From a virus (Duplodnaviria; Heunggongvirae; Uroviricota; Caudoviricetes), in IMG/VR virus record IMGVR_UViG_640753025_000001, positions 1-50,042 of that record: a stretch of 50,042 nt of DNA; one strand, 5' to 3'. Each line of letters starts with the position of its first letter. Positions within the stretch are counted from its first letter, which is position 1. A model generated the notes under the pieces. It did not search any database, was not told the DNA's origin, and worked only from the letters and a program-made list of their open reading frames with translations. A program made the translations under genes and the position numbers. Below are positions 1,459-47,892 of this stretch, one piece after another.

Positions 1459-2619
1459 TTACCTCGCATTTAAGTAAACCACGTTCTCCTCTTGTGCCGT
1501 ATTTGTGCCATTGCGACTTATAATCGCATCGATTTTGCTTGCGTGCTCGGTGAGATGCCCGGCTGAAAGGTGGGCGTATCTTTGAACCATTTCGAGAGTT
1601 TCCCATCCTCCCATCTCTTTAAGTGCAAGAAGAGAGACACCAGACTGAACCAGCCAGCTTGCCCAGGTATGCCTCAGGTCATGGAAGCGGAAGTTGCTAA
1701 TGCCTGCCCGCTTTAACGCTCCCTTCCATGCCTTGTTGCTGTCGGTTCTCATCTTCCTTACCGCTGCTGTTTTTGTTCCGTCGCTTCGGTAGGCAGGTTT
1801 GGTGTGGACAAACACCCATCTCTTATGGAGACCCTGCTGTTTTCTTAATATCTGGCATGCGGTTTCGTTAAGAGGAACTCCGATCGCATTGCCAGCTTTT
1901 GTTTCATCAGGGTGCATCCATGCCATTTTCTTATCCAGATCGACCTGTGACCACTCAAGGTCTGTAACGTTGGAACGGCGAAGGCCTGTCGTGATTGCAA
2001 ACATGACCACAGGGAAGAAATGAGGAGCAATTTCTGCAAACAGGCGCTTCGATTCCTCCTCTGTAAGCCATCTGATTCGTCCATTCTTAACGCGTGGTGT
2101 TGATATTTTGGGCGCCCTGTCAAGCCATCCCCATTCAACAGCCATATTGAGAATAGCGCGAAGTATTGCCAGATGCCGCGTCTTCGTTCCTTTGCTTGCC
2201 AGCTTTGGTTTATACTCCGGCACTGGCTTGCCAAGCCGCAAACACCTGTCCCGGCTCATTTCCCAGTTCAGGCGATGGCGGCGGTTTTCCATCCCGTCTA
2301 CCGCCTCCATTATTTTTTCTGTTGTTATGTCTGAGAGAATGGTTTCTCTGAAGTGCAACATCCAGAACGATATAATGCTCTTGTCATCATCAATGGACTT
2401 CTTATCCGATTTCTCACGCAGCCACCGTATGCAGGCTTCCTTGAATAGCTTTTTCGGTGATTCCCCGAGATTTTTTACTCTCCACGCTTCTGCTTTCAGA
2501 CGATCGTGAAGTTCTTGCGCTTGCCTTTTGTCCGATGTTTCAAGAGAGCGTCTAACTCTTGATCCATCTGGCGCGACGAAATCGCAGTGCCACGTGCCAC
2601 CGCGTAGTTTGATTGACAT
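1459..2619 (-). CDS. int: tyrosine integrase, P22 Int-like
   Basis: 386-aa ORF with HDLRHTW and RYAHL catalytic region; 3' end 12 bp from attL. Confidence 0.9.
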   Translation of the reverse strand: MSIKLRGGTWHCDFVAPDGSRVRRSLETSDKRQAQELHDRLKAEAWRVKNLGESPKKLFKEACIRWLREKSDKKSIDDDKSIISFWMLHFRETILSDITTEKIMEAVDGMENRRHRLNWEMSRDRCLRLGKPVPEYKPKLASKGTKTRHLAILRAILNMAVEWGWLDRAPKISTPRVKNGRIRWLTEEESKRLFAEIAPHFFPVVMFAITTGLRRSNVTDLEWSQVDLDKKMAWMHPDETKAGNAIGVPLNETACQILRKQQGLHKRWVFVHTKPAYRSDGTKTAAVRKMRTDSNKAWKGALKRAGISNFRFHDLRHTWASWLVQSGVSLLALKEMGGWETLEMVQRYAHLSAGHLTEHASKIDAIISRNGTNTAQEENVVYLNAR

Positions 2620-3460: not shown

Positions 3461-4102
3461 TCATTCACCATCCTGCTCCGGCGGTTCTGGCAGCGGCATC
3501 CAGTGAGTTACGTCATCCAAGATATTTCCTGATAAATACGTGAAAGCTCTATATTTTTTGTAATCAATTGGATTTACAACCCAGTTCCAATATGCGGCCA
3601 CGATTTCACCTTGACTAAATGCCAGTAACATTTTGGTGTCTTCCGGCATTCGATCACTACAGCTTATCCAACTACCCGGAGTTACCGGAGAGTTGCCGCG
3701 TTCTTTAATGTGCAAGCGAGGCTCACCATCTTTTGGTTCAGGCCACTGGCGTTCCATGTTGATCTTCAATTTATTTTCCATAGCAGCGGTAATTTCAGCA
3801 TCACTGATACCAGCACGGCGCTGTGCATCCCACAACAGAAACTGCATATCAGCCCACTCGCTAAGATCGTCTGGTTCGGCTGCGGCTTCCAGTGCCTCTT
3901 TTGAGAGATGTTTCAGCGGACCAATGGGGCCAACGCAGCCAAATGTGGAGTCAGACCATTTGGCATGCTCGTGGCGAATCTGTTCGCGTTCCAGTGATGC
4001 CAGTGCAATTCGTGCCAGTTCCATTTGTTCGCCACGAGTAAGTCCGTTATCAAGCGGATTTTTAATGAATAATTTGATACGTTCTTTGGTTATAGCGCTC
4101 AT
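3461..4102 (-). CDS. phage protein, DUF551-like C-terminus
   Basis: ORF with AAGGAG RBS before ATG at 4102 (MSAITKE); C-terminal WMPLPEPP motif recalled from DUF551 proteins. Confidence 0.5.
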   Translation of the reverse strand: MSAITKERIKLFIKNPLDNGLTRGEQMELARIALASLEREQIRHEHAKWSDSTFGCVGPIGPLKHLSKEALEAAAEPDDLSEWADMQFLLWDAQRRAGISDAEITAAMENKLKINMERQWPEPKDGEPRLHIKERGNSPVTPGSWISCSDRMPEDTKMLLAFSQGEIVAAYWNWVVNPIDYKKYRAFTYLSGNILDDVTHWMPLPEPPEQDGE

Positions 4103-6325: not shown

Positions 6326-6610
6326 GTGCCCATGAGCGGTAAGCGTTATCCCGAAGAGTTTAAAACTGAAGCAGTCAAACAGGTTGTTGATCGCGGTTAT
6401 TCTGTTGCCAGCGTTGCAACACGTCTCGATATCACCACCCACAGCCTTTATGCCTGGATAAAGAAGTACGGTCCGGATTCTTCCACTAATAAAGAACAGT
6501 CAGATGCTCAGGCCGAGATCCGCCGTCTCCAGAAAGAGCTGAAACGGGTTACCGACGAACGGGACATATTAAAAAAAGCCGCGGCGTACTTCGCAAAGCT
6601 GTCCGACTGA
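6326..6610 (+). CDS. IS3-family transposase OrfA (HTH)
   Basis: 94-aa ORF; A-run (TTAAAAAAAGCC) near 3' end consistent with a -1 frameshift site. Confidence 0.9.
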   Translation: MPMSGKRYPEEFKTEAVKQVVDRGYSVASVATRLDITTHSLYAWIKKYGPDSSTNKEQSDAQAEIRRLQKELKRVTDERDILKKAAAYFAKLSD

Positions 6611-6666
6611 GGTACGCCTTTATCCGTGACAACTCCTGTTGCTGGCCTGTTCGCCTGCTCTGTCGG

Positions 6667-7479
6667 GTGCTGGATGTTCATCCCAGTGGTTTTTACGCCT
6701 GGCTTCAGCAGCCGCATTCACAACGCCATCAGGCAGACCTGAGACTGACAGGACAGATTAAACAGTTCTGGCTGGAATCGGGATGCGTCTATGGTTATCG
6801 CAAAATCCATCTGGATTTGCGTGACAGCGGGCAACAGTGCGGAGTAAACAGAGTCTGGAGACTGATGAAACGTGTCGGAATAAAGGCTCAGGTCGGATAC
6901 CGAAGCCCGCGGGCACGTAAAGGCGAGGCCAGTATCGTGTCACCCAACAGGCTCCAGCGACAGTTCAATCCGGATGCTCCTGATGAGCGTTGGGTAACGG
7001 ACATAACCTACATCAGGACCCACGAAGGCTGGCTGTATCTTGCCGTTGTTGTTGATCTGTTCTCACGCAAAATTATCGGCTGGTCCATGCAATCCCGGAT
7101 GACAAAGGACATTGTCCTGAACGCACTGCTGATGGCTGTATGGCGGCGTAATCCCGAAAAACAGGTGCTGGTTCATTCGGATCAGGGCAGTCAGTACACA
7201 AGCCATGAGTGGCAGTCGTTCCTGAAATCACACGGCCTGGAGGGTAGCATGAGCCGTCGCGGTAACTGCCATGATAATGCGGTTGCAGAAAGTTTTTTCC
7301 AGTTGTTGAAACGTGAACGGATAAAGAAAAAGATCTACGGAACGCGGGAAGAAGCCCGCAGTGATATTTTTGATTACATCGAAATGTTTTATAACAGTAA
7401 GCGTCGGCATGGTTCTAGCGAACAGATGTCACCGACAGAATATGAAAACCAGTATTATCAACGGCTCGGAAGTGTCTAG
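6667..7479 (+). CDS. IS3-family transposase OrfB (DDE catalytic domain)
   Basis: 270-aa ORF from first Met; expected expression as OrfAB fusion by frameshift. Confidence 0.9.
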   Translation: MLDVHPSGFYAWLQQPHSQRHQADLRLTGQIKQFWLESGCVYGYRKIHLDLRDSGQQCGVNRVWRLMKRVGIKAQVGYRSPRARKGEASIVSPNRLQRQFNPDAPDERWVTDITYIRTHEGWLYLAVVVDLFSRKIIGWSMQSRMTKDIVLNALLMAVWRRNPEKQVLVHSDQGSQYTSHEWQSFLKSHGLEGSMSRRGNCHDNAVAESFFQLLKRERIKKKIYGTREEARSDIFDYIEMFYNSKRRHGSSEQMSPTEYENQYYQRLGSV

Positions 7480-13467: not shown

Positions 13468-14893
13468 TTTTTATGCGCCGCCCCATAGCATCGAGGCAGA
13501 GCAGGCGGTGATTGGTGGATTGCTTCTGGATGATGACAGCAGTGAGCGCGTCCAGAAAGTTCTGGCGATGCTGAAGCCTGATTCATTTTACAGCCGACCA
13601 CACAAAATCATTTTCGAAGAAATAACCAGAATGCACCGGGAGCAAAAGCCAGTAGATGGCCTGACGCTTTTCGATGAACTGGAGCGTAAATCGTTAACGG
13701 CGTCTGTTGGCGGTTTTGCTTATATCGCTGAGATCGCAAAGAACACGCCAAGCGCCGCAAACATCGTTGCCTATGCAATGCAGGTTCGCGAAACCGCAAT
13801 GGAACGCTACGCCATCAACCGCATGACTGAAGCGACGGAATTGCTCTATTCCCGCAACGGAATGACTGCAACGCAGAAGTACGAAGCTATTCAGGCGATT
13901 TTCACGCAACTGACAGACCATGCAAAAACCGGATCGCGTCGCGGCCTTCGCTCATTTGGTGAGGTCATGGAAGACTGGGTTAGCGACCTTGAGAAGCGAT
14001 TTGACCCGTCAGGCGAACAACGAGGAATGAGCACAGGGATCCCATCTCTGGACAGGATGCTGTCACCGAAAGGTCTGGTGAAAGGCTCTCTGTTCGTCAT
14101 TGGCGCTCGCCCTAAGATGGGGAAAACGACGCTATACAGCCAGATGGCAATCAACTGCGCAGTGCATGAGAAAAAGCCCGCTCTGATGTTCAGTCTTGAA
14201 ATGCCTGGCGACCAGATACTGGAAAAGCTGGTAGGACAGAAGTCAGGTGTTAACCCGAATATTTTTTACCTTCCGGCGACAAATGACGCCGATGACGGCT
14301 ATCAGGGTGATTACGATGGTGACTTCAACAGGGCGATCGAAACAGCCAATCGCTTGAGTGAAATCGACATGCTTTACATCGACGACACGCCGGGATTATC
14401 TCTGGCTCAAATCGTCAGCGAAAGCCGTCGAATCAAGCGAGAAAAAGGATGTGTTGGCATGATTCTGGTCGATTACCTGACACTAATGACCGCTGAGAAG
14501 GCCGATCGCAACGACCTTGCTTACGGCATGATCACCAAAGGACTGAAGAACCTTGCCAAAGAGCTTGATTGCGTTGTTGTGCTTCTGACACAGCTTAACC
14601 GCGCACTGGAAAGCCGAACCAATAAACGCCCATTACCAAGTGACTCACGAGATACAGGGCAGATTGAACAGGATTGCGATTATTGGGTGGGGATCCATCG
14701 TGAAGGTGCTTTTGATGACAGTGTTCCACCTGGTGAAACCGAACTAATCCTTCGTCTCAATCGTCATGGCAATACCGGCACGGTGTATTGCATTCAGGCA
14801 AATGGCGCTATTTATGACACAGACCAACAGTCTGCTGAAATGCGCCGCCGTGAACGCGAGGAACCGCAATCCAAGAAGAAAGGAGGATTCTGA
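13457..14893 (+). CDS. replicative DNA helicase, DnaB-like
   Basis: Walker A GARPKMGKT and DnaB-type C-terminal domain; ATG at 13457 overlaps O stop. Confidence 0.9.
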   Translation: MTDNFYAPPHSIEAEQAVIGGLLLDDDSSERVQKVLAMLKPDSFYSRPHKIIFEEITRMHREQKPVDGLTLFDELERKSLTASVGGFAYIAEIAKNTPSAANIVAYAMQVRETAMERYAINRMTEATELLYSRNGMTATQKYEAIQAIFTQLTDHAKTGSRRGLRSFGEVMEDWVSDLEKRFDPSGEQRGMSTGIPSLDRMLSPKGLVKGSLFVIGARPKMGKTTLYSQMAINCAVHEKKPALMFSLEMPGDQILEKLVGQKSGVNPNIFYLPATNDADDGYQGDYDGDFNRAIETANRLSEIDMLYIDDTPGLSLAQIVSESRRIKREKGCVGMILVDYLTLMTAEKADRNDLAYGMITKGLKNLAKELDCVVVLLTQLNRALESRTNKRPLPSDSRDTGQIEQDCDYWVGIHREGAFDDSVPPGETELILRLNRHGNTGTVYCIQANGAIYDTDQQSAEMRRREREEPQSKKKGGF

Positions 14894-14969
14894 TGACCAT
14901 CTACATCACTGAGCTAATAACAGGCCTGCTGGTAATCGCAGGCCTTTTTATTTGGGGGAGAGGGAAGTC

Positions 14970-15410
14970 ATGAAAAAACTAACCTTTGAAATTCGATCTC
15001 CGGCACATCAGCAAAACGCTATTCACGCAGTACAGCAAATCCTTCCAGACCCAACCAAACCAATCGTAGTAACCATTCAGGAGCGCAACCGCAGCTTAGA
15101 CCAAAATCGGAAGCTTTGGGCTTGCCTTGGTGACGTTTCGCGTCAGGTTGAATGGCATGGTCGCTGGCTGGATGCAGAAAGCTGGAAGTGCGTTTTTACA
15201 GCAGCATTAAAGCAGCAGGACGTTGTTCCTAACCTTGCCGGGAATGGCTTTGTGGTAATAGGCCAGTCAACCAGCAGGATGCGTGTAAGCGAATTTGCGG
15301 AGCTATTAGAGCTTATACAGGCATTCGGTACAGAGCGTGGCGTTAAGTGGTCAGACGAAGCGCGACTGGCTCTCGAATGGAAAGCGCGATGGGGAGATCG
15401 GGCAGCATGA
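14970..15410 (+). CDS. ninB: NinB
   Basis: ATG at 14970 ([20 protein letters not shown]); recognised as lambdoid NinB. Confidence 0.8.
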
Positions 15411-15580
15411 TGCGATGTTATCGGTGCGGTGAATGCAAAGAAGATAACCGCTTCCGACCAAATCAACCTTACTGGAATCGATGGTGTCTCCGGTGTGAAA
15501 GAACACCAACAGGGGTGTTGCCACTACCGCAGGAAAAGGAGGACGTGTGGCGAGACAGCGACGAAGTATCACCGACATAA
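15407..15580 (+). CDS. small Cys-rich (zinc-ribbon-like) nin-region protein, NinD-like
   Basis: 57-aa [13 protein letters not shown]...CLRC with two CxxC pairs; start overlaps ninB stop. Confidence 0.45.
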
Positions 15581-15723
15581 TCTGCGAAAACTGCAAATAC
15601 CTTCCAACGAAGCGCTCCAGAAATAAATGCAAGCCAATCCCAAAAGAATCTGACGTAAAAACCTTCAATTACACAGCTCACCTGTGGGATATCCGGTGGC
15701 TAAGATATCGTGCGAGGAAATGA
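15547..15723 (+). CDS. ninE: NinE
   Basis: GTG start after AGGAGGA; 58 aa (V)[29 protein letters not shown]...; missed by ORF track (non-ATG start). Confidence 0.65.
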
Positions 15724-16085
15724 CAATGGATTATTCACAGTTAAGTGATTTTGAAATTAACGTGGCGGTATTCGAAGCCATTCATAACGGATCACCGGAT
15801 TACAAAGAAGGTGAGAATGGCGATATGGTGTTTGTCTCATTTGAGGGAGACATTGTAAACGGAGACGCAGTTGAAGTAGAAGTTGAGCGCGGATCCTTTA
15901 ACCCATGCGCAAACCCAGCAGACGCATGGCCGATTATTGAAAAATACAGGATTAGCATTATCAATCTCGATGAAGACGAGTGGGGTGCACGCGGTGTGGC
16001 CTACTGTAAATCTAAGCGAGCTATACATGAAAATCCCCTCCGCTCCGCCATGATTGTCTTTCTCATGATGCAGAGAATCCAATAA
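15720..16085 (+). CDS. hypothetical nin-region protein
   Basis: ATG at 15720 overlapping ninE stop (MTMDYSQ...). Confidence 0.55.
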
Positions 16086-16261
16086 TGATTAGCCCATCCC
16101 AATCCATTCAATACCAGAAAGAAAGCGTCGAGCGGGCTTTAACGTGCGCTAACTGCGGTCAGAAGCTGCATGTGCTTGAAGTTCACGTGTGTGAGCACTG
16201 CTGCGCAGAACTGATGAGCGATCCGAATAGCTCAATGTACGAGGAAGAAGACGATGAGTGA
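16085..16261 (+). CDS. ninF: NinF
   Basis: 58-aa [40 protein letters not shown]...; below ORF-track cutoff. Confidence 0.65.
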   Translation: MISPSQSIQYQKESVERALTCANCGQKLHVLEVHVCEHCCAELMSDPNSSMYEEEDDE

Positions 16262-17977: not shown

Positions 17978-18019
17978 CAGCATGATTGCCACGGATGGCA
18001 ACATATTAACGGCATGATA

Positions 18020-18048
18020 TTGACTTTTTGAATAAAGTTGGGTAAATT
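18020..18048 (+). promoter_or_regulatory. late promoter pR' (start of 6S RNA / qut region)
   Basis: TTGACT (18020..18025) - 17 bp - TAAATT (18043..18048); region recalled as lambda pR'. Confidence 0.6.
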
Positions 18049-18191
18049 TGACCCAACGATGGGTTAATTCGCTCGTTGTGGTAGTGAGATGAAAAGAGGC
18101 GGCGCTTACTACCGATTCCGTCTAGTTGGTCACTTCGACGTATCGTCTGGAACTCCAACCATCGCAGGCTGAGAGGTCTGCAAAATGCAAT

Positions 18192-18248
18192 CCCGAAACA
18201 GTTCGCAGGTAATAGTTAGAGCCTGCATAACGGTTTCGGGATTTTTTA
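18192..18248 (+). terminator. tR' terminator (end of 6S RNA)
   Basis: Long hairpin CCCGAAAC...GTTTCGGG followed by ATTTTTTAT. Confidence 0.75.
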
Positions 18249-18799
18249 TATCTGCACAACAGGTAAGAGCATTAAAGAACTGGCAAAGAGCTTAACGGTC
18301 TGCGAAAGCATTTCTTAGTGGCACAACTGGCCGGTACAACTGAGTGCTCTTTCCGGTGTGGTGAATGCGCAGGCTGATGCGCGCAGGAGAGCTTCGGAAG
18401 AACAAGGTGCCTGTATACAAGCCGGAGATCAGCGCCGGCCACCACAGCCAAATCCACCCAGAGCAAAACCGTTGTTCATCCTTACCATTCCCTCAGTATT
18501 TTGGGCTACAACCCTCAGCCCATTTTTTAAAGCGTACTTCCACCAAGAACCAGACCTAACCAACTCATTGCTGACACTCTGTGGATACGGTTGTCTAGTG
18601 CGCTTTAAAAAAGAAAACCCAGCATCAATGGCTGGGCTTCGTGATATGAGCGGCATGTATTGTTGGCGCAATCCACGCCTGATTTGCTCATGAATGCGGT
18701 CACGAACAAACCCGTTACAAATCAACCGTAACCCGGATTTGTTCGAGCGACCATATCCATAATTCCTAATTTGAACAGATCCCCTTCTGGGGGTAAGAC

Positions 18800-19123: not shown

Positions 19124-19583
19124 TCAACGTAAGGCGTTCCTCGATATGCTGGCGTGGTCAGAGGGAACTGATAACGGACGTCAGAAAACCAGGAATCATG
19201 GTTATGACGTCATTGTTGGCGGAGAGCTATTCACTGATTACTCCGATCACCCTCGCAAACTTGTCACGCTAAACCCCAAACTCAAATCAACAGCAGCCGG
19301 GCGTTACCAGCTTCTTTCCCGTTGGTGGGATGCCTATCGTAAGCAGCTTGGCCTGAAAGACTTCTCTCCCAAAAGCCAGGACGCTGTGGCATTGCAGCAG
19401 ATTAAGGAGCGTGGCGCTTTGCCGATGATTGATCGCGGTGATATCCGTCAGGCTATCGACCGTTGCAGCAATATCTGGGCTTCACTGCCGGGCGCTGGTT
19501 ATGGTCAGTTCGAGCATAAAGTTGACAGCCTGATTGCAAAATTCAAAGAGGCTGGCGGAACGGTCAGAGAGATTGAGGTATGA
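19107..19583 (+). CDS. R: endolysin R (lytic transglycosylase)
   Basis: 158-aa ORF recognised as lambda R. Confidence 0.93.
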
Positions 19584-20017
19584 GCAGATTAACCGCGATT
19601 ATCTCCGCTCTGATTATCTGCATCATCGTCTGTCTGTCATGGGCTGTTAATCATTACCGTGATAACGCCATCGCCTACAAAGACCAGCGCGATAAAGCCA
19701 CATCCATCATCGCTGATATGCAGAAGCGTCAACGTGATGTAGCAGAACTCGACGCAAGATATACAAAGGAACTTGCTGATGCTAACGCGACTATCGAAAG
19801 TCTCCGTGCTGATGTTTCTGCTGGGCGTAAGCGCCTGCAAGTCGCCGCCACCTGTGCAAAGTCAACGACCGGAGCCAGCAGCATGGGCGATGGAGAAAGC
19901 CCAAGACTTACAGCAGATGCTGAACTCAATTATTACCGTCTCCGAAGTGGAATCGACAGGATAACCGCGCAGGTTAACTACCTGCAGGAATACATCAGGA
20001 CGCAATGCCTGAAATAA
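19580..20017 (+). CDS. Rz: spanin inner-membrane subunit Rz
   Basis: 145 aa, N-terminal TM segment then coiled coil. Confidence 0.88.
19773..19964 (+). CDS. Rz1: spanin outer-membrane lipoprotein Rz1 (embedded in Rz)
   Basis: 63-aa ORF in +1 frame inside Rz; lipobox LLGVSAC then Pro-rich segment. Confidence 0.8.
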
Positions 20018-35792: not shown

Positions 35793-36434
35793 TCAAAGCA
35801 ACGGGATTTCAAGGTAAACTGCGGTTGCCAAAATACTAACATCTTCATTTCTAACAAGAATATTAGGATACATTGGGTTTAGGGATACTAAGTTTGTCTC
35901 TATTTCACCAATGTAAACCTGCTTGAAGCTCAATATTTGCTCTTTATCCAATGATGCTATTACATAATCTTTGCTTTTAGCTTTTACTAGAGGGCTGAAC
36001 GTGACAACTGATCCTCTGGGAAAGCTAATACCTGAACTTGTAGTCATAGCTTCACCTTCAATAGTCAATGCAAATGCAGAGTCACCAACATTGTATATTG
36101 CCGGATGAAATCTAGACGATGAATGTTCACCTGTGTTTAGGTAATGCATAACTTCATCTAGTTTGAGGATTGGTATTTGCTTTACCAGAACGTCAGGCAT
36201 GACGTTTTTTGTTCCAGGCCCCTGACCTTCACCCAGAGCTAACCACTCAGCCGTAGTGCCTAATGCGTTGGCTAATGCCTGCAATACACGAAGCCGTGGT
36301 TTAGCCTCACCACCCTCGTATGCAGCTATTTGACGTTGAACAACACCAGCTAATTTTGACAACTGCGCCTGCGTCATACCCCTGGACTGTCTTGCCAGAG
36401 ATACTCTTGATGGGAATTGATCGTCAAAATTCAT
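35793..36434 (-). CDS. second CI-like repressor (HTH + S24-like domain, Ser to Ala at nucleophile)
   Basis: 213 aa; HTH GMTQAQLSKLAGV; C-terminal domain aligns to CI/C2 but has GEAM (Ala129, codon 36048..36050) where CI/C2 have GNSM/GDSM. Confidence 0.8.
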   Translation of the reverse strand: MNFDDQFPSRVSLARQSRGMTQAQLSKLAGVVQRQIAAYEGGEAKPRLRVLQALANALGTTAEWLALGEGQGPGTKNVMPDVLVKQIPILKLDEVMHYLNTGEHSSSRFHPAIYNVGDSAFALTIEGEAMTTSSGISFPRGSVVTFSPLVKAKSKDYVIASLDKEQILSFKQVYIGEIETNLVSLNPMYPNILVRNEDVSILATAVYLEIPLL

Positions 36435-36455
36435 TAGTTCACCATAAAAAATTCA

Positions 36456-36484
36456 TTGACTCATACTGAGTGTGAGTGAATAAT
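36456..36484 (+). promoter_or_regulatory. Pant-like promoter for arc-ant operon
   Basis: TTGACT - 17 bp - AATAAT; spacer holds tandem TGAGTGTGAGTG. Confidence 0.5.
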
Positions 36485-36532
36485 CAAACTACAAAAAGTG
36501 AGATTATGAGTTTTTCAAAAACAGGAGTGCAT

Positions 36533-36706
36533 AATGACTGAAAAGATATCTTCCATCAAGCCGCGTCAGGTTCGTTTTACAGAAAAGGTTGATTCACATA
36601 TCCGCGAATCAGCAAAAAGATGCCATAGGTCAATTCAGGCAGAGATAGCTTATCGAATGGAGTTATTGATGAAACTTGAGGCAAAGGGCGATGTTGTCAT
36701 CCAATA
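36533..36706 (+). CDS. arc: Arc-like ribbon-helix-helix repressor
   Basis: 57 aa; RQVRFTEKVDSHIRESAKRCHRSIQAEIAYRM fits Arc/Mnt pattern; below ORF-track cutoff. Confidence 0.65.
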
Positions 36707-36780
36707 AAAATAGTGAAGCCCGGCAGTGCGCGAACACAAACCGGGCCTCTATGTCAGTAACCGTATGCAAGGAAACTAAC

Positions 36781-37407
36781 ATGAATATTGTAGCAAAATC
36801 AGATTACAACTTCCACGGAGTTGAGTTGGTGCCCACCCGTGATATGCATGGTGTTTGGTTTACATCATCTAATATTGCATCTGCACTTAAATATGCAAAT
36901 AGCCGTGCAGTAACAATGATTTATAACAAGTATAGCGATGAGTTTAGCGCCGGAATGACTCAGGTACTCGAAGTGAGTACCTCAGGAAATTATCGCAAAA
37001 AAGTGCGAGTTTTCTCACTACGCGGTGCCCACCTAATCGCGATGTTTGCTCGCACTCCGGTAGCCAAAGAGTTCCGCCGCTGGGTGCTGGATATTTTGGA
37101 TCGGCAGGCAGAATGCTCACCGATTGCAAAACAGTTTACTGACGAAGAACTGGTTAATCTCTGCTACTTACAATTGTGGATGGAGAAGAGTCAACAAATG
37201 TGCAAACACATCTACCCAGGAATGAAGCAAATTGGTTCTGAGCTTTCAGGAAGAATTTACGATATTGCATATGAGACTCGCTATATGTCAGAAGAAACCA
37301 AGAAATCACTTCTTCGTGAAATGAAGAATCTTGATACCAACAATTTTGTCGTAAAGAACGCTCAGCCAATGCTGACAAAACTGCGCGGCGAGGAATGGAT
37401 TCATTGA
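36781..37407 (+). CDS. ant: antirepressor (Bro-N domain)
   Basis: ATG at 36781 after AAGGAA; N-terminal domain (HGVELVPTRDMHGVWFTS...) resembles phage antirepressor N-domain. Confidence 0.7.
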   Translation: MNIVAKSDYNFHGVELVPTRDMHGVWFTSSNIASALKYANSRAVTMIYNKYSDEFSAGMTQVLEVSTSGNYRKKVRVFSLRGAHLIAMFARTPVAKEFRRWVLDILDRQAECSPIAKQFTDEELVNLCYLQLWMEKSQQMCKHIYPGMKQIGSELSGRIYDIAYETRYMSEETKKSLLREMKNLDTNNFVVKNAQPMLTKLRGEEWIH

Positions 37408-38143: not shown

Positions 38144-38428
38144 GTGCCCATGAGCGGTAAGCGTTATCCCGAAGAGTTTAAAACTGAAGCAGTCAAACAG
38201 GTTGTTGATCGCGGTTATTCTGTTGCCAGCGTTGCAACACGTCTCGATATCACCACCCACAGCCTTTATGCCTGGATAAAGAAGTACGGTCCGGATTCTT
38301 CCACTAATAAAGAACAGTCAGATGCTCAGGCCGAGATCCGCCGTCTCCAGAAAGAGCTGAAACGGGTTACCGACGAACGGGACATATTAAAAAAAGCCGC
38401 GGCGTACTTCGCAAAGCTGTCCGACTGA
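38144..38428 (+). CDS. IS3-family transposase OrfA
   Basis: Identical protein to 6326..6610. Confidence 0.9.
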   Translation: MPMSGKRYPEEFKTEAVKQVVDRGYSVASVATRLDITTHSLYAWIKKYGPDSSTNKEQSDAQAEIRRLQKELKRVTDERDILKKAAAYFAKLSD

Positions 38429-38484
38429 GGTACGCCTTTATCCGTGACAACTCCTGTTGCTGGCCTGTTCGCCTGCTCTGTCGG

Positions 38485-39297
38485 GTGCTGGATGTTCATC
38501 CCAGTGGTTTTTACGCCTGGCTTCAGCAGCCGCATTCACAACGCCATCAGGCAGACCTGAGACTGACAGGACAGATTAAACAGTTCTGGCTGGAATCGGG
38601 ATGCGTCTATGGTTATCGCAAAATCCATCTGGATTTGCGTGACAGCGGGCAACAGTGCGGAGTAAACAGAGTCTGGAGACTGATGAAACGTGTCGGAATA
38701 AAGGCTCAGGTCGGATACCGAAGCCCGCGGGCACGTAAAGGCGAGGCCAGTATCGTGTCACCCAACAGGCTCCAGCGACAGTTCAATCCGGATGCTCCTG
38801 ATGAGCGTTGGGTAACGGACATAACCTACATCAGGACCCACGAAGGCTGGCTGTATCTTGCCGTTGTTGTTGATCTGTTCTCACGCAAAATTATCGGCTG
38901 GTCCATGCAATCCCGGATGACAAAGGACATTGTCCTGAACGCACTGCTGATGGCTGTATGGCGGCGTAATCCCGAAAAACAGGTGCTGGTTCATTCGGAT
39001 CAGGGCAGTCAGTACACAAGCCATGAGTGGCAGTCGTTCCTGAAATCACACGGCCTGGAGGGTAGCATGAGCCGTCGCGGTAACTGCCATGATAATGCGG
39101 TTGCAGAAAGTTTTTTCCAGTTGTTGAAACGTGAACGGATAAAGAAAAAGATCTACGGAACGCGGGAAGAAGCCCGCAGTGATATTTTTGATTACATCGA
39201 AATGTTTTATAACAGTAAGCGTCGGCATGGTTCTAGCGAACAGATGTCACCGACAGAATATGAAAACCAGTATTATCAACGGCTCGGAAGTGTCTAG
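38485..39297 (+). CDS. IS3-family transposase OrfB
   Basis: Identical protein to 6667..7479. Confidence 0.9.
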   Translation: MLDVHPSGFYAWLQQPHSQRHQADLRLTGQIKQFWLESGCVYGYRKIHLDLRDSGQQCGVNRVWRLMKRVGIKAQVGYRSPRARKGEASIVSPNRLQRQFNPDAPDERWVTDITYIRTHEGWLYLAVVVDLFSRKIIGWSMQSRMTKDIVLNALLMAVWRRNPEKQVLVHSDQGSQYTSHEWQSFLKSHGLEGSMSRRGNCHDNAVAESFFQLLKRERIKKKIYGTREEARSDIFDYIEMFYNSKRRHGSSEQMSPTEYENQYYQRLGSV

Positions 39298-39471: not shown

Positions 39472-39497
39472 AAACCCGCTTAATCGCGGGTTTTTTC
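39472..39497 (+). terminator. rho-independent terminator ending the arc-ant operon
   Basis: Hairpin AAACCCGC-TTAATC-GCGGGTTT followed by TTTTC. Confidence 0.65.
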
Positions 39498-39767
39498 TTT
39501 CCTTAGAATTTCAGCCGCAACTTCTTTTACTCGTTCCGAGATTAATGAGGCCAGCCTCTCTTCTTCATCACGATACCCGCTTACAGGTGATGGTTTGGAG
39601 AGTGATTCTTCCATCGTAGCCACAATTTCAGAATTGATAGACCTGTTATTCATTTTTGCACGCTGCTTAATCTTAGCGTGCAACTCGTGTGTAAGCCTCA
39701 AGTGGAACTGCGCCTCATCGTATTTGCTGTACATCATCAATGCCTCACCAAATGGGTGGAATGGCAT
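39480..39767 (-). CDS. mnt: Mnt-like ribbon-helix-helix repressor
   Basis: 95-aa ORF; LRLTHELHAKIKQRAKMNNRSINSEIVATMEESLSKPSPVSGYRDEEERLA matches the P22 Mnt pattern as recalled; true start may be an internal Met. Confidence 0.65.
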   Translation of the reverse strand: MPFHPFGEALMMYSKYDEAQFHLRLTHELHAKIKQRAKMNNRSINSEIVATMEESLSKPSPVSGYRDEEERLASLISERVKEVAAEILRKEKTRD

Positions 39768-43464: not shown

Positions 43465-44673
43465 ATGAAACTTAATGCGCGACAGGTAGACGCAGCTAAA
43501 CCCAGAGAGAAAGCCTATAAGCTGGCAGATGGTGCTGGTTTGTATCTTGAGGTTGTTCCCTCTGGTTCCAGATACTGGCGGATGAAATATCGCTTCAATG
43601 GAAAAGAGAAGCGTATGGCCTTTGGTGTCTATCCGGCAGTGTCCCTTGCACAAGCGAGGGCACTGCGTGACGACGCCAAGAAAAAGCTTGCCGAAGGTAT
43701 CGATCCATCGCTTGCCAAGAAAGAAGAAAAGCTGGTTCGAGATGTGCAGCTAAATAATACGTTTCAGGCTGTGGCACTTGAATGGCATGGAACGAAGGTG
43801 AGCCGATGGTCAGAAGGTTATGCCTCGGACATTATCGAAGCCTTTAATAAAGATATTTTTCCCTATATTGGCCAACAACCGGTGAATGAAATCAAACCGC
43901 TGGTTCTGCTTAATGTGCTGCGTCGAATTGAAAGCCGTGGCGCGACAGAGAAGGCCAAGAAGGTTCGCCAGCGTTGCAGCGAAGTCTTTCGTTACGCCAT
44001 CGTAACCGGTCGTGCGGAATACAATCCTGCAGCGGATCTTACCAGCGCGATGTCAGGGCATGAATCGAAGCATTATCCCTTCCTTACTGTTGAGGAGTTA
44101 CCAGACTTTTTTAAAGCTCTCGCAGGCTACACAGGAAGCCCGTTAGTTGTTCTTGCGGCACGTCTGCTGATCCTCACGGGAGTTCGCACTGGCGAACTCC
44201 GAGGTGCTTTCTGGAGTGAGTTTGATCTTGAAAAAGCGGTGTGGGAGATACCTGCCGAGCGTATGAAGATGAAACGGCCTCACCTTGTCCCCCTCTCTAC
44301 CCAAGCGCTGGAAATCGTACAGCAACTCAAAGTGATGTCAGGGCAATATCCACTGGTGTTCCCGGGACGTAATGATCCCCGCAAGACGATGAGTGAAGCG
44401 AGTATTAATCAGGTTTTTAAGCGGATTGGATATACGGGGAGGGTAACGGGGCATGGTTTCCGTCACACGATGAGTACGATTTTGCATGAGGAAGGTTTCA
44501 ATACAGCGTGGATTGAAACCCAGCTGGCTCACGTTGATAAAAATGCGATTCGTGGGACGTATAACCATGCGTTGTATTTGGAAGGACGTAGGGAGATGAT
44601 GCAGTGGTATGCGGACTATATAAACGCTAATCATAATTCATGTATTTCTTTGCTGGTGAACGCTACAAAGTAG
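43465..44673 (+). CDS. int: tyrosine integrase, P4 type
   Basis: ATG at 43465 after GGGAGA; catalytic HGFRHT and RGTYNHALY regions; begins 160 bp after the tRNA 3' repeat, reading away from it. Confidence 0.9.
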   Translation: MKLNARQVDAAKPREKAYKLADGAGLYLEVVPSGSRYWRMKYRFNGKEKRMAFGVYPAVSLAQARALRDDAKKKLAEGIDPSLAKKEEKLVRDVQLNNTFQAVALEWHGTKVSRWSEGYASDIIEAFNKDIFPYIGQQPVNEIKPLVLLNVLRRIESRGATEKAKKVRQRCSEVFRYAIVTGRAEYNPAADLTSAMSGHESKHYPFLTVEELPDFFKALAGYTGSPLVVLAARLLILTGVRTGELRGAFWSEFDLEKAVWEIPAERMKMKRPHLVPLSTQALEIVQQLKVMSGQYPLVFPGRNDPRKTMSEASINQVFKRIGYTGRVTGHGFRHTMSTILHEEGFNTAWIETQLAHVDKNAIRGTYNHALYLEGRREMMQWYADYINANHNSCISLLVNATK

Positions 44674-44914
44674 ATTTGACGTGATGATAGGATTGATTAG
44701 GAAAATGACCTAAAACCGTATATTTTGATACTTAAGTTTAAACATTAGCCCTATATCCGATCGCCCTTTGTTACCTACACTTCTATCTTTTTTAGGTTCT
44801 AGGGCTGAAAGATTTGAAGATAAGTTTATAAATATCAATAGATTACATGATTGTGTTGGTTCTTGGGTAGCCGTAACGCCTAGGGCGGTAGCGTACTTAA
44901 GATGAGTATAAAAA

Positions 44915-46123
44915 ATGAACAGTAACTATATGCCATTCACACAACGAGATAGTCTCGGAAGATACTATACAAAAGAATCCATAAGTGCATTATTGGTTTC
45001 TCAGATGAAAGCTGAAAAAGTCAATAATATTATTGATTTAGCTTCTGGTGAGGGGAGCTTAACCTATGCTGCTTTAGACCGATGGAAGAATGCAGAAGCA
45101 TATTCTTTGGATATAGAATCTCGGATGTCAAAAAAAGTATGTGATAATCTTACTCATATTGTAACAGATGCCCTTGTTCATTCATTTCCTGAAATGCTTG
45201 CCCGACATCAAGGAAATTTTGATGTTGCAGTATGTAATCCTCCATTCACTCTCCCTGAATGGAGGGATGATTATTTTAAAATCATTAGTGAGATTGGCGC
45301 AGATAAATATATATCTGTCTCAAAATATGTCCCAGCAGAGATAATATTTATATCTCAAGTCATCAGGTTTCTTAAAAAGGGCGGTGAGGCTGGAATAATT
45401 TTACCTGATGGTATATTTACAGCAAGAAAGTTTATAGGTTTAAGACGATATTTATTGAATGAACATTCAATTACAAAAGTCATTGAATTGCCTAGGAATA
45501 TCTTCAAAAGGACAGAGGCTAAAACACATATTTTAATTTTTAATAAAAAAATTATGCCTCATCATAAAATACAATTACATTGTATAACTAAAGATGGGGA
45601 ATTGTCGCCTCCTGTTTTAATTAGAAAAGAAGATGCGGTTGAGAGAATGGACTACTCTTATCATTATAATAAAAATGAAGGTAAAGGGTTTAGCACAATA
45701 GGGATGCTTAAAAATATTTCAATTTTTAGAGGTAGGTTTAATTCAAAGGAAATTACGGAACATGTTTTTCATACGACAAAATTTAGTGGTGATGAAAAGT
45801 ACATTAAATTCCACTGCAACTCTGTAGAAGAATTGAAGCCATCAAAATTAGATGTCATTGCTAAGCCTGGTGATATATTAATAGCAAGAGTTGGGCGAAA
45901 TTTTCATAAAAAAATATTGTTTGTTGAGAGCGGCTATTCTTATATCAGTGACTGTATTTTTCTGATACGAGCCTCTGGTGGAGATAAGAAAAAACTATTT
46001 GATTTTCTTTGTTCTCAAGATGGGCAAGAGGAATTATCTCGAGCGAGTAGTGGTGTAGCCGCACAACATATTACAATGGATGCATTAAAAAAAATACATC
46101 TTGTAAGGATTAAACATGACTGA
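44915..46123 (+). CDS. N6-adenine DNA methyltransferase, gamma class
   Basis: 402 aa; GRYYTKESI (motif X-like), IIDLASGEGSLT (AdoMet motif I), CNPPF (motif IV, 45236..45247); ~160-aa C-terminal putative recognition domain; AT-rich. Confidence 0.8.
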   Translation: MNSNYMPFTQRDSLGRYYTKESISALLVSQMKAEKVNNIIDLASGEGSLTYAALDRWKNAEAYSLDIESRMSKKVCDNLTHIVTDALVHSFPEMLARHQGNFDVAVCNPPFTLPEWRDDYFKIISEIGADKYISVSKYVPAEIIFISQVIRFLKKGGEAGIILPDGIFTARKFIGLRRYLLNEHSITKVIELPRNIFKRTEAKTHILIFNKKIMPHHKIQLHCITKDGELSPPVLIRKEDAVERMDYSYHYNKNEGKGFSTIGMLKNISIFRGRFNSKEITEHVFHTTKFSGDEKYIKFHCNSVEELKPSKLDVIAKPGDILIARVGRNFHKKILFVESGYSYISDCIFLIRASGGDKKKLFDFLCSQDGQEELSRASSGVAAQHITMDALKKIHLVRIKHD

Positions 46124-47822: not shown

Positions 47823-47892
47823 TTTTGATGGCATGTACTTGTCAATCGTGTCTTTCTTATCTGAAAAGTTTAATTTAAAAAGAGTCGGGAAA

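What the first reader, a model, noticed from the sequence alone, without database searches (positions are those of the whole stretch)
15407..16261. Several real small genes fall below or outside the ORF track (NinD-like, NinE with GTG start, NinF, Arc-like)
NinE (15547..15723, GTG start), NinF (16085..16261, 58 aa), a zinc-ribbon-like 57-aa ORF (15407..15580) and the Arc-like gene (36533..36706) were found by direct reading. The ORF track either omits them or shows only an overlapping longer frame. This shows that small or non-ATG genes in this window need manual inspection.
Basis: seen in the sequence. Interest (0 to 1): 0.25.

Follow-up and report, generated by a model that had tools for sequence, protein, structure and literature searches.

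The report
Known small phage genes, correctly spotted
The short reading frames flagged here are real, conserved prophage genes (NinD, NinE, NinF and a small Arc-type regulator) that public annotation already lists, so the finding is correct but ordinary, apart from the regulator, which an older paper said this prophage lacked.

Summary
The window is the inducible P22-like prophage phiHS4 of E. coli HS. 15407..15580 is NinD and is 100% identical to lambda NinD. 15547..15723 is NinE, with the same GTG start and Shine-Dalgarno context as lambda ninE. 16085..16261 is NinF. All three match their Pfam families end to end, show purifying selection in the claimed frame only, and sit in a chain of 11 overlapping stop/start junctions running from the helicase to Q. 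RefSeq already annotates all of them, so they are already known.

The "Arc-like" coordinates are one base off; the ORF is 36534..36707. It is a real 57-aa gene (pN/pS 0.115, intact in 35 of 35 related loci). It has no BLAST similarity to P22 Arc and no Pfam Arc hit. A family profile does reach the Arc-superfamily protein AmrZ (E = 6e-05), followed by Arc itself. The predicted fold is ribbon-helix-helix. The gene sits in the arc position upstream of ant.

A by-product: the arc-ant spacer encodes a minus-strand RNA with the two-hairpin shape of P22 sar and strong covariation. A 2008 paper said this prophage lacks arc. Overall interest is low.

The parts
14893..14973 (+). NinA-like 26-aa ORF (candidate). 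Not in the finding and not annotated by PGAP. It bridges the helicase stop (TGATG) and the ninB start (ATGA).
   Evidence: 24/26 residues identical to P22 NinA. PHROG 5907 match at E = 1.6e-19, full length. ORF kept at 26-27 aa in 52 of 55 loci. pN/pS is 0.175 but rests on only 12 differences. It overlaps a terminator, so the conservation could reflect RNA structure.
14922..14953 (+). tR2-type intrinsic terminator inside the NinA-like ORF, upstream of the nin genes.
   Evidence: 8-bp GC-rich stem followed by TTTTATTT. The sequence just upstream of ninB, running through the terminator T-tract, is identical to lambda's. P22 annotates a terminator at the equivalent place inside ninA.
14970..15410 (+). 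ninB (Orf recombination mediator), the upstream partner of ninD.
   Evidence: Pfam NinB E = 1.1e-54. One residue different from lambda NinB.
15407..15580 (+). ninD, 57 aa, with four Cys (CxxC-x19-CxxC). Start ATGATG, overlapping the ninB stop.
   Evidence: 100% identical to lambda NinD. Pfam NinD 1-57/57, E = 1.8e-41. pN/pS 0.225 against 1.18 and 1.19 in the other frames. PGAP calls the start at 15410 in one HS assembly and 15377 in the other. Lambda and P22 place it at the equivalent of 15407.
15547..15723 (+). ninE, 58 aa, very basic, GTG start. It overlaps ninD by 34 nt, and its own AAGGAGGA Shine-Dalgarno lies inside ninD codons.
   Evidence: Pfam NinE 1-58/58, E = 1.4e-43. Same GTG and upstream 25 nt as lambda ninE. 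In 101 IMG/VR stretches of this allele the start codon is GTG in 94 and ATG in 7. P22-type alleles and alleles without ninD use ATG at the same position. pN/pS 0.249. PGAP gives the same coordinates.
15720..16085 (+). ninX. The start is 15720 (ATGA overlap, as in P22) or 15726 (PGAP).
   Evidence: Pfam Phage_P22_NinX E = 6.2e-18. P22 NinX starts MTMDYSQ.
16085..16261 (+). ninF, 58 aa, CxxC-x11-CxxC. TAATG overlap with the ninX stop.
   Evidence: Pfam NinF 47.3 bits against a cut-off of 27.5. PHROG 672 match 1-58/58. The four Cys are invariant down to 41% identity in ES18 gp67. pN/pS 0.336. PGAP gives the same coordinates.
35793..36434 (-). CI-like repressor (HTH + S24 domain), divergent from the Arc-like gene. 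The catalytic Ser is replaced by Ala.
   Evidence: Pfam HTH_3 and Peptidase_S24. It reads EGEAMT where lambda CI has EGNSMT, P22 C2 has GDSM and its own relatives have GESM or GDSM.
36456..36484 (+). Promoter-like site (TTGACT-17-AATAAT) upstream of the Arc-like gene, with palindromes ACTCA-TAC-TGAGT and ATAATC..GATTAT around it.
   Evidence: The palindromes change together with the repressor type across loci. Function is inferred only.
36534..36707 (+).
   Evidence: Intact ATG ORF of 57 aa in 35 of 35 loci; pN/pS 0.115; 48 of 72 variable columns at codon position 3. The family profile hits AmrZ at E = 6e-05, then Arc variants. AF2 pLDDT 77, helices 17-30 and 34-51. Top Foldseek hits are Arc and AmrZ. 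PHROG 10182 match, full length.
36700..36783 (-). Candidate sar-like antisense RNA. The 5' hairpin is antisense to the ant RBS and ATG. The 3' GC-rich hairpin is followed by a U-run that overlaps the Arc-like stop codon.
   Evidence: Same two-hairpin fold as P22 sar in 14 variants; z = -5.5 for the window. A covariance model built from the window finds one hit per locus, and its only hit in P22 is the annotated sar (E = 0.011). 96.4% of cells paired, 17 of 24 pairs with double changes, 0 of 500 shuffles reaching this. Rfam's sar model does not hit it.
36781..37407 (+). Antirepressor (ant-type) gene downstream of the Arc-like gene.
   Evidence: Pfam Bro-N and P22_AR_C.

Best explanation
The frames are genuine, translated small genes of a P22-like lambdoid prophage (phiHS4 of E. 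coli HS).

ninD, ninE and ninF belong to the classical nin region of the rightward early operon. They lie downstream of a tR2-type terminator and upstream of Q. They form part of an unbroken chain of genes whose stop and start codons overlap by 1, 4, 8 or 34 nt, so each small gene is most likely translated by coupling to its upstream neighbour. ninE additionally carries its own strong Shine-Dalgarno sequence inside ninD and starts at GTG, exactly as in lambda. NinD and NinF are four-cysteine, probably zinc-binding miniproteins. NinE is a very basic miniprotein. By analogy with lambda they are dispensable accessory proteins whose biochemical role is unknown. My guess is that they bind nucleic acid or partner proteins in support of the neighbouring recombination functions NinB, YbcO and RusA.

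The fourth gene (36534..36707) is a diverged Arc-superfamily ribbon-helix-helix protein. It most likely dimerises, binds the divergent promoter region at 36435..36533 through its N-terminal beta-ribbon (invariant QVR), and represses its own operon, including the antirepressor gene ant. This is what Arc does in P22 immI. It would be helped by a sar-like antisense RNA that covers the ant ribosome-binding site.

Shown here: gene reality, family or fold assignment, synteny and RNA covariation. Inferred: translational coupling, zinc binding, DNA binding, repression of ant, and transcription of the antisense RNA.
For: Identity of the window: 100% match to the E. coli HS chromosome. The prophage is described as the inducible phiHS4.

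Family matches: Pfam NinD 1.8e-41, NinE 1.4e-43, NinF 1.8e-12, all at or near full length. PHROG families also match at full length.

Reference phages: lambda and P22 annotate the same genes with the same sizes, order and 34-nt ninD/ninE overlap. NinD is identical to lambda's. NinE has the same GTG and Shine-Dalgarno context.

Selection: pN/pS is 0.225, 0.249 and 0.336 in the claimed frames and about 0.6 or higher in the other two frames; third-position changes are in excess.

Start site: the ninE start position alternates only between GTG and ATG across alleles.

Coupling: 11 of 11 junctions from the helicase to Q overlap.

Arc-like gene: pN/pS 0.115 and intact in 35 of 35 loci, always between a divergent CI-like repressor and a downstream cargo gene at fixed spacing. 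The profile hits AmrZ at 6e-05, and the other four PDB hits are Arc variants. The fold search is topped by Arc-operator complexes and AmrZ at probability 0.94-0.98. One 81%-identical homologue is named 'Arc family DNA-binding protein' by NCBI.

sar-like RNA.

Literature: ninD, ninE and ninF are non-essential in lambda and of unknown function.
Against: No direct expression data for these genes in phiHS4 were available. In a related P22-like lysogen (Kapi1), ninE and ninF transcripts were not detected in uninduced cultures; this is expected for early lytic genes, but it is not positive evidence.

The NinD start is ambiguous among 15407, 15410 and 15377.

The Arc-like protein fails the Pfam Arc model and gives no BLASTP alignment to P22 Arc. 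Foldseek E-values are above 0.1 because the chain is short. The AF2 monomer does not form the beta-strand, which needs a dimer.

Cys conservation in NinD is not universal.

The biochemical functions of NinD, NinE and NinF are guesses.
Confidence: 0.9

Rival explanations
1. The short frames are chance ORFs or annotation carry-over, and no protein is made from them.
For: ORFs of this size are abundant by chance: 44 ORFs of at least 30 aa in 4 kb. No function is known, and lambda lacking them is viable. ninE and ninF transcripts were undetected in an uninduced Kapi1 lysogen.
Against: Purifying selection is specific to the claimed frame in all four genes. The ORFs stay intact across dozens of loci and hundreds of phage records, down to 41-46% identity. 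The start position toggles only between ATG and GTG. Eleven consecutive stop/start overlaps occur.
Confidence: 0.02
2. The 57-aa ribbon-helix-helix protein is not an Arc-type regulator of ant. It is instead a ParD/CopG-type antitoxin, or an unrelated RHH regulator whose target lies elsewhere.
For: The only Pfam hit is ParD_like at E = 8e-4, below the cut-off. There is no Pfam Arc hit and no BLASTP alignment to P22 Arc. The gene downstream varies between loci and is not always ant.
Against: The gene downstream is an antirepressor (Bro-N/P22_AR_C), not a toxin. The profile's best PDB hits are AmrZ and Arc, not ParD or CopG. The Arc-operator complex tops the fold search. The spacer to the downstream gene is homologous in layout to P22's arc-sar-ant spacer. 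The locus lies between the gene-16 and tailspike homologues, exactly where immI lies in P22.
Confidence: 0.1
3. NinD is longer than 57 aa and starts upstream, at ATG 15377 as in one PGAP run, or at GTG 15347 as in the mechanical ORF.
For: The frame is open back to 15347. PGAP chose 15377 in assembly GCF_057772145.1.
Against: The Pfam NinD model is 57 positions long and matches residues 1-57 from 15407. In lambda the gene follows ninC rather than ninB, so the upstream DNA is unrelated, yet the protein is identical from MMRCY onward. P22 NinD starts at the equivalent ATG with the same ATGA overlap. The extension would lie in another frame of the ninB coding sequence.
Confidence: 0.06

Closest known systems
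Bacteriophage lambda ninD, ninE, ninF (nin region, NC_001416 41950..42439)
   Same: NinD protein is identical. ninE has the same GTG start, the same Shine-Dalgarno context and the same 34-nt overlap with ninD. NinF has the same Cys4 core. Both sets lie between the replication genes and Q, downstream of a tR2-type terminator.
   Different: NinE is 58 aa here and 60 aa in lambda. NinF starts at ATG with a different N-terminal decapeptide, whereas lambda uses GTG. ninC is absent here, so ninD follows ninB directly. ninX lies between ninE and ninF, as in P22.
Salmonella phage P22 nin region (12-ninA-ninB-ninD-ninE-ninX-ninF)
   Same: Same gene order and sizes: ninA 26 aa, ninD 57 aa, ninE 58 aa, ninF 58 aa. 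Same stop/start overlaps. A terminator lies inside ninA.
   Different: P22 ninE starts with ATG. P22 NinD is about 74% identical to this one. Downstream of ninF, P22 has ninG and ninY, while this prophage has an 89-aa ORF, YbcO and RusA.
P22 immI region: Arc repressor (53 aa), sar antisense RNA, ant, and the Mnt repressor
   Same: A small ribbon-helix-helix gene lies immediately upstream of ant and is transcribed divergently from a maintenance-type repressor. The RHH-ant spacer of about 70 bp encodes a minus-strand two-hairpin RNA with a -10 element at the same position as P22 Psar (TGCTACAAT here, TGCTATACT in P22). The locus lies between the gene-16 and tailspike homologues, next to sieA.
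   Different: No pairwise sequence similarity to Arc and no Pfam Arc or Rfam sar membership. The divergent repressor is a 213-aa CI/LexA-type protein with a dead S24 nucleophile, not Mnt. A separate Mnt-like gene (39480..39767) lies next to the tailspike gene. No operators have been identified.
AmrZ (AlgZ) of Pseudomonas aeruginosa, PDB 3qoq, an Arc-superfamily RHH transcription factor
   Same: It is the best sequence-profile match (E = 6e-05), covering the beta-strand and both helices and sharing the motif VR..E......A...HRS...EI..R.E. It is also the best TM-score match: TMt 0.74-0.75, rmsd about 1.0 A over 39 columns.
   Different: AmrZ is a chromosomal regulator of alginate synthesis and motility with a C-terminal oligomerisation extension. 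It has no phage, ant or sar context.

Membership tests
NinD (Pfam PF17466) | Full-length match to the family HMM above the gathering score | tested here: met
   140.4 bits against a cut-off of 35; residues 1-57 on profile 1-57. 100% identical to lambda NinD.
NinD (Pfam PF17466) | Position directly upstream of ninE with the 34-nt out-of-frame overlap, after ninB or ninC | tested here: met
   15407..15580 against 15547..15723, the same as lambda and P22. An intact NinD frame lies upstream of NinE in 92 of 101 stretches.
Zinc ribbon (as a descriptor of NinD and NinF) | Two CxxC pairs conserved across the family | tested here: inconclusive
   NinF: all four Cys are invariant down to 41% identity. 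NinD: they are kept in lambda, P22 and Skatevirus, but ES18 gp65 and an Acinetobacter phage homologue each lack one Cys. NinF has only sub-threshold Pfam DZR hits.
Zinc ribbon (as a descriptor of NinD and NinF) | Bound zinc ion | not testable with these tools
   Needs metal analysis of the purified protein.
NinE (Pfam PF05322) | Full-length match to the family HMM above the gathering score | tested here: met
   147 bits against a cut-off of 25; residues 1-58 on profile 1-58.
NinE (Pfam PF05322) | Conserved start position (GTG or ATG) preceded by GGAGG | tested here: met
   Same GTG and context as lambda. GTG in 94 and ATG in 7 of 101 stretches of this allele. ATG at the same position in P22, ES18 and alleles without ninD.
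NinF (Pfam PF05810) | Match to the family HMM (CxxC...CxxC core) above the gathering score | tested here: met
   47.3 bits against a cut-off of 27.5. PHROG 672 match 1-58/58 at E = 3.8e-37.
Arc family (Pfam PF03869, Arc-like DNA-binding domain) | Match to the family HMM above the gathering score | tested here: not met
   No Arc hit at E <= 0.01. The only hit is ParD_like at 19.8 bits, below its cut-off of 23. No BLASTP alignment to P22 Arc. PHROG 'Arc-like repressor' matches only at E = 0.0045.
Arc/MetJ ribbon-helix-helix superfamily | Beta-strand, helix A and helix B fold with detectable relationship to solved members | tested here: met
   The family profile hits AmrZ at E = 6e-05. All five PDB hits are AmrZ or Arc. 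AF2 gives helices 17-30 and 34-51 after an extended N-terminal segment, pLDDT 77. The Foldseek top hits are almost all RHH proteins, led by Arc and AmrZ at probability 0.94-0.98, although the E-values are 0.14 or higher.
P22 immI-type Arc (functional role) | Located just upstream of ant, divergent from a maintenance repressor, between the gene-16 and tailspike homologues | tested here: met
   (phage JEP4 shows the same layout without the IS3).
P22 immI-type Arc (functional role) | Binds an operator overlapping Pant and represses arc-ant transcription | not testable with these tools
   Only a promoter-like site and palindromes were seen. No operator could be assigned to the RHH protein.
sar antisense RNA (Rfam RF00262) | Match to the Rfam covariance model at the gathering score | tested here: not met
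   No sar hit in the window even at E <= 10. The same model scores 97.8 bits on P22 sar.
sar antisense RNA (Rfam RF00262) | Minus-strand RNA in the arc-ant spacer with a 5' hairpin antisense to the ant RBS and a 3' terminator hairpin plus U-run, supported by covariation | tested here: met
   96.4% of cells paired; 17 of 24 pairs with compensatory changes. G-U pairs favour the minus strand. The reciprocal model hits P22 sar at E = 0.011. The alignment was fitted to the model, which inflates pairing somewhat.

The most novel reading that the evidence does not exclude
The 'ant moron' of the E. coli HS prophage (phiHS4, also called HS-1) and of phage JEP4 is not missing arc, as was inferred in 2008. 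It would be a complete but strongly diverged immI-type circuit with four parts:
- an Arc-superfamily RHH repressor that BLAST cannot see;
- a sar-like antisense RNA that the Rfam sar model does not recognise;
- an antirepressor;
- in place of Mnt at the divergent promoter, a CI/LexA-type repressor whose S24 catalytic serine is replaced by alanine, so that it would be SOS-insensitive and act as a maintenance repressor.

Control of ant in this lineage would then work as in P22, using non-orthologous or unrecognisably diverged parts.
Probability: 0.55. Interest if true: 0.35.

Novelty: already known. Interest (0 to 1): 0.15.

Why it matters
For ninD, ninE and ninF the finding matters only as quality control. 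It shows that a 60-aa, longest-ORF track hides or misdraws about 11% of the real genes in this prophage, and that deposited phage genomes often leave NinD unannotated. Even one pipeline run on the same sequence twice gave two different NinD starts.

The Arc-type gene matters slightly more. A published comparison of P22-like phages concluded that this very prophage lacks arc and must therefore control its antirepressor differently (PMC2629481). The small RHH gene and the sar-shaped antisense element found here suggest that the P22 logic is in fact retained. phiHS4 is inducible and curable, so this can be tested directly.

Tried and rejected
Things that led nowhere or misled:
- Single-sequence searches for the Arc-like protein gave nothing usable. 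Pfam gave only a sub-threshold ParD_like hit. phmmer against the PDB gave AmrZ at E = 0.8. BLASTP against P22 Arc gave no alignment. NCBIfam gave only a far sub-threshold TprA hit.
- The exhaustive representative search added only two distant relatives at about 45% identity, plus one odd 2909-aa protein. The family is narrow, and the profile had to be built mostly from sequences at least 81% identical.
- The first set of 80 NinE loci all had ATG starts. I rejected this as evidence against GTG because the search tool back-translates M to ATG and ranks by tblastn. A DNA pattern scan with D at the first codon position gave 94 GTG and 7 ATG.
- Rfam scans of the window found only the tRNA-Thr at gathering score, and in the spacer only a weak symR-like hit at E = 0.09.
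- A MAFFT plus RNAalifold analysis of the arc-ant spacer gave a poor consensus (-1.75 kcal/mol), because indels in the hairpin misaligned it. I replaced it with per-sequence folding and a covariance-model alignment.
- I tried to assign operators by comparing loci that have different repressor types. The palindromes change with the repressor, so they probably belong to the CI-like protein. No RHH operator could be identified.
- I could not obtain the lambda ribosome-profiling paper or the Casjens and Hendrix lambda review. No direct translation evidence is therefore cited.
- The idea that GTG at ninE is forced by the overlapping ninD codon is rejected. An A at 15547 would give GTA, still valine.
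Full report
WHAT THE WINDOW IS. The 2-kb region around the finding is 100% identical to the chromosome of E. coli HS. The RefSeq annotation shows a P22-like prophage integrated at tRNA-Thr next to proA. A 2026 preprint names it phiHS4 and shows that mitomycin C induces it and that its DNA is packaged. The finding lies in the nin region, between a DnaB-type helicase and the Q antiterminator.

CHECK OF THE OBSERVATION. Direct translation confirms three of the four frames exactly as given:
- 15407..15580: ATG start, 57 aa.
- 15547..15723: GTG start, 58 aa.
- 16085..16261: ATG start, 58 aa.
The fourth, 36533..36706, is one base off and is full of stops as written. The ORF is 36534..36707 (ATG, 57 aa).

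At the default 60-aa cut-off the mechanical ORF list omits NinE, NinF and the Arc-like ORF. It shows NinD only as a 77-aa GTG frame and NinX only as a 133-aa GTG frame, and it lists several spurious overlapping ORFs. Across the window, 7 of 63 intact annotated genes are under 60 aa and 19 of 63 start somewhere other than the mechanical longest ORF start.

ARE THEY REAL GENES? ORFs of this size are common by chance, with 44 ORFs of at least 30 aa in 4 kb. The case therefore rests on other evidence.

1. Family models. Pfam gives NinD at E = 1.8e-41 (1-57 of 57), NinE at 1.4e-43 (1-58 of 58) and NinF at 1.8e-12, above its cut-off. The neighbours match NinB, NinX and YbcO. Each small protein also has its own full-length PHROG family.

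2. Reference phages. Lambda and P22 annotate the same genes in the same order, with the same sizes and the same 34-nt ninD/ninE overlap. NinD here is identical to lambda NinD. ninE has lambda's GTG and an identical 25-nt upstream context that includes AAGGAGGA.

3. In related IMG/VR loci, pN/pS against the window sequence is 0.225 (NinD), 0.249 (NinE) and 0.336 (NinF) in the claimed frame. In the other two frames it is 0.58 to about 2. Variable columns are in excess at the third codon position.

4. Breadth. tblastn finds NinD in 214 phage records, NinE in 429 and NinF in 221, down to 41-47% identity. Many records leave the NinD frame unannotated.

5. Gene chain. All 11 junctions from the helicase through a NinA-like ORF, ninB, ninD, ninE, ninX, ninF, an 89-aa ORF, ybcO, rusA and ninH to Q have overlapping stop and start codons: TGATG, ATGA, TAATG, ATGAGTGA, or the 34-nt overlap. 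From established knowledge of lambda, this is the 'chain of interlinked genes' described for its nin region, and it implies translational coupling.

THE GTG START OF ninE. 15547 is the first start codon after the upstream stop, and the protein has no internal methionine, so there is no alternative start. My first set of related loci all had ATG there. That set was biased by the way the tool builds its patterns. A pattern scan that left the first base free gave GTG in 94 and ATG in 7 of 101 stretches of this allele; 90 of the 94 GTG ORFs are intact at 58 or 60 aa. P22-type alleles, ES18 and alleles without ninD have ATG at the same position. A position that toggles only between start-capable codons is good evidence for the start site. 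The overlapping ninD codon does not force GTG, because GTA would also encode valine.

THE NinD START. PGAP put it at 15410 in one HS assembly and at 15377 in another assembly of the same sequence. The 15407 start is the best supported. It matches the Pfam model from position 1. It matches lambda, where the unrelated ninC lies upstream, and it matches P22, in each case with an ATGA overlap.

ZINC-RIBBON DESCRIPTOR. NinF's CxxC-x11-CxxC motif is invariant down to 41% identity. NinD's CxxC-x19-CxxC motif is kept in lambda, P22 and a Skatevirus homologue, but ES18 and an Acinetobacter phage each lack one Cys. NinE's single CxxC is lost in a Klebsiella phage variant. Zinc binding is therefore plausible for NinF and NinD, and it is untested.

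FUNCTION OF THE nin MINIPROTEINS. The literature retrieved lists lambda ninD, ninE and ninF as non-essential and of unknown function, with only low-confidence two-hybrid partners. My proposal is that they are dispensable accessory proteins, co-expressed by coupling with the recombination genes, and that they bind nucleic acid or partner proteins. This is a guess.

THE ARC-LIKE GENE. It is real. All 35 related loci keep a 57-aa ATG ORF. pN/pS is 0.115 at pS 0.56, and 48 of 72 variable columns are at codon position 3.

It is not a recognisable Arc by simple tests. There is no Pfam Arc hit, only a sub-threshold ParD_like hit. There is no BLASTP alignment to P22 Arc. Single-sequence phmmer gives AmrZ at E = 0.8. 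Homologues are confined to Enterobacterales, and nearly all are at least 81% identical. One is named 'Arc family DNA-binding protein' by NCBI.

More sensitive tests do place it in the superfamily. A profile of the family hits AmrZ, a solved Arc-superfamily regulator, at E = 6e-05. The other four PDB hits are all Arc variants, through the beta-strand and the RS...EI..R helix-B motif. An AlphaFold model (pLDDT 77) has an extended N-terminal segment followed by helices 17-30 and 34-51. Its best structural matches are Arc-operator complexes and AmrZ at probability 0.94-0.98, followed almost entirely by other RHH proteins, although the E-values are weak for so short a chain.

The context is that of P22 immI. 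Reading along the window, the order is: ejection-protein genes, a SieA-like gene, a divergent repressor, the RHH gene, an antirepressor with Bro-N and P22_AR_C domains, a KilA-like gene cut by IS3, a Mnt-like gene, and the tailspike gene. Phage JEP4 shows the same layout without the IS3.

So the gene works like Arc and belongs to the Arc/MetJ superfamily. Membership of the Pfam Arc family was tested and not met.

A BY-PRODUCT: A sar-LIKE ANTISENSE RNA. The 73-bp spacer between the RHH gene and ant aligns with P22's arc-ant spacer. On the minus strand, the window and 13 distinct related spacers fold into the same two hairpins as authentic P22 sar, with z = -5.5 for the window. The 5' hairpin is antisense to the ant RBS and ATG. 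The 3' hairpin is GC-rich and is followed by a U-run.

Rfam's sar model scores 97.8 bits on P22 but does not hit the window. A covariance model built only from the window-type sequence finds exactly one hit per locus at the same position. Its single hit in the whole P22 genome is the annotated sar, at E = 0.011.

On the resulting alignment, 96.4% of cells pair, against 75.5% in shuffles and 35-46% when the partners are slid. 17 of 24 pairs show double compensatory changes. Many pairs are G-U, which pair only on the minus strand. The caveat is that the alignment was fitted to the model. A TGCTACAAT element aligns with P22 Psar's TGCTATACT.

COMPARISON WITH THE LITERATURE. A 2008 comparison of P22-like 'ant morons' included this prophage as 'HS-1', with its IS3. 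It stated that HS-1 and CUS-3 apparently lack arc, and that they must therefore control ant differently from P22. The present evidence suggests that arc and sar functions are present in diverged form. This is the only part of the finding that goes beyond existing annotation. It remains computational.

VERDICT. ninD, ninE and ninF are textbook genes that RefSeq already annotates at these coordinates, so the finding as a whole is already known and of low interest. The Arc-type gene is a diverged new member of a known kind, and the associated sar-like RNA is a modest lead.

Noticed in passing
window 36700..36783 (-): Candidate sar-like antisense RNA between the Arc-like gene and ant. It has the same two-hairpin shape as P22 sar and strong covariation across 15 sequences. 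The Rfam sar model does not recognise it and PGAP does not annotate it.
   Followed up: yes
window 35793..36434 (-): The CI/LexA-type repressor divergent from the Arc-like gene has Ala in place of the S24 catalytic Ser: it reads EGEAMT, where lambda CI has EGNSMT and P22 C2 has GDSM. The catalytic Lys position is kept. Relatives 45-48% identical in other loci keep Ser. The protein probably cannot autocleave, so it may act as an SOS-insensitive, Mnt-like maintenance repressor.
   Followed up: partly
window 14893..14973 (+), terminator 14922..14953: A 26-aa hydrophobic NinA-like ORF, 24/26 identical to P22 NinA and matching PHROG 5907, links the helicase stop to the ninB start. It contains a tR2-type intrinsic terminator, so its conservation may reflect the RNA rather than a protein.
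   Followed up: partly
window 15377/15407/15410 and 15720/15726: Two RefSeq assemblies of the identical HS sequence carry different NinD starts, 15410 and 15377. Neither matches the lambda and P22 reference start at the equivalent of 15407. NinX is annotated from 15726, whereas P22 uses the equivalent of 15720.
   Followed up: yes
window 19773..19964 (+), inside 19580..20017: An Rz1-type embedded lipoprotein ORF (LLGVSAC lipobox, proline-rich) lies in another frame of the Rz-like lysis gene, as in P22. PGAP does not annotate it in HS.
   Followed up: partly
window 6332..7479 and 38150..39297 (both +): Two copies of the same IS3-family element, with the same transposase accession, lie in direct orientation inside the prophage. 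One splits a Gp157-family gene. The other truncates the KilA-like gene downstream of ant, which is intact in phage JEP4. Recombination between the two copies would delete about 32 kb, including the structural genes.
   Followed up: no
window 39480..39767 (-): A 95-aa Mnt-like RHH gene (PHROG 795, the family of P22 Mnt, E = 3.9e-37) lies divergent from the tailspike gene. PGAP labels it 'Arc family DNA-binding protein'. The prophage therefore carries both a CI-like repressor and a Mnt-like repressor in its ant moron.
   Followed up: partly
window 17978..18799: An 820-bp stretch between Q and the holin gene has no annotation. A lambda PR'-like promoter (TTGACT-17-TAAATT) lies at 18020..18048. 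Only unconvincing ORFs were seen and Rfam found nothing.
   Followed up: partly
window 43465..48870 (+): Just beyond the prophage lies a second integrase, then a methyltransferase (PADLOC Type II MTase model, E = 8e-237), a 568-aa zinc-ribbon protein with weak HEC-02A hits, and a 356-aa protein with no hit. This may be a small restriction or defence island.
   Followed up: partly
window 1459..2613 (-) and 3461..4003 (-): At the starts PGAP annotates for the integrase and for the dATP/dGTP pyrophosphohydrolase-domain gene, the sequence reads ATC and CTG. These are unusual start codons and may deserve a check.
   Followed up: no
protein P0031 (not in the window): The exhaustive search with the 57-aa RHH protein hit a 2909-aa protein in five separate stretches (E = 1.1e-10, 41% identity over residues 7-35). 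This looks like a large protein with repeats resembling the RHH N-terminus. It is unexplained.
   Followed up: no
phage records, e.g. OP265889 7313..7483, KU927492 36213..36383, MZ375349 2342..2491: Many deposited phage genomes have an intact NinD-homologous frame with no annotated gene under it.
   Followed up: partly
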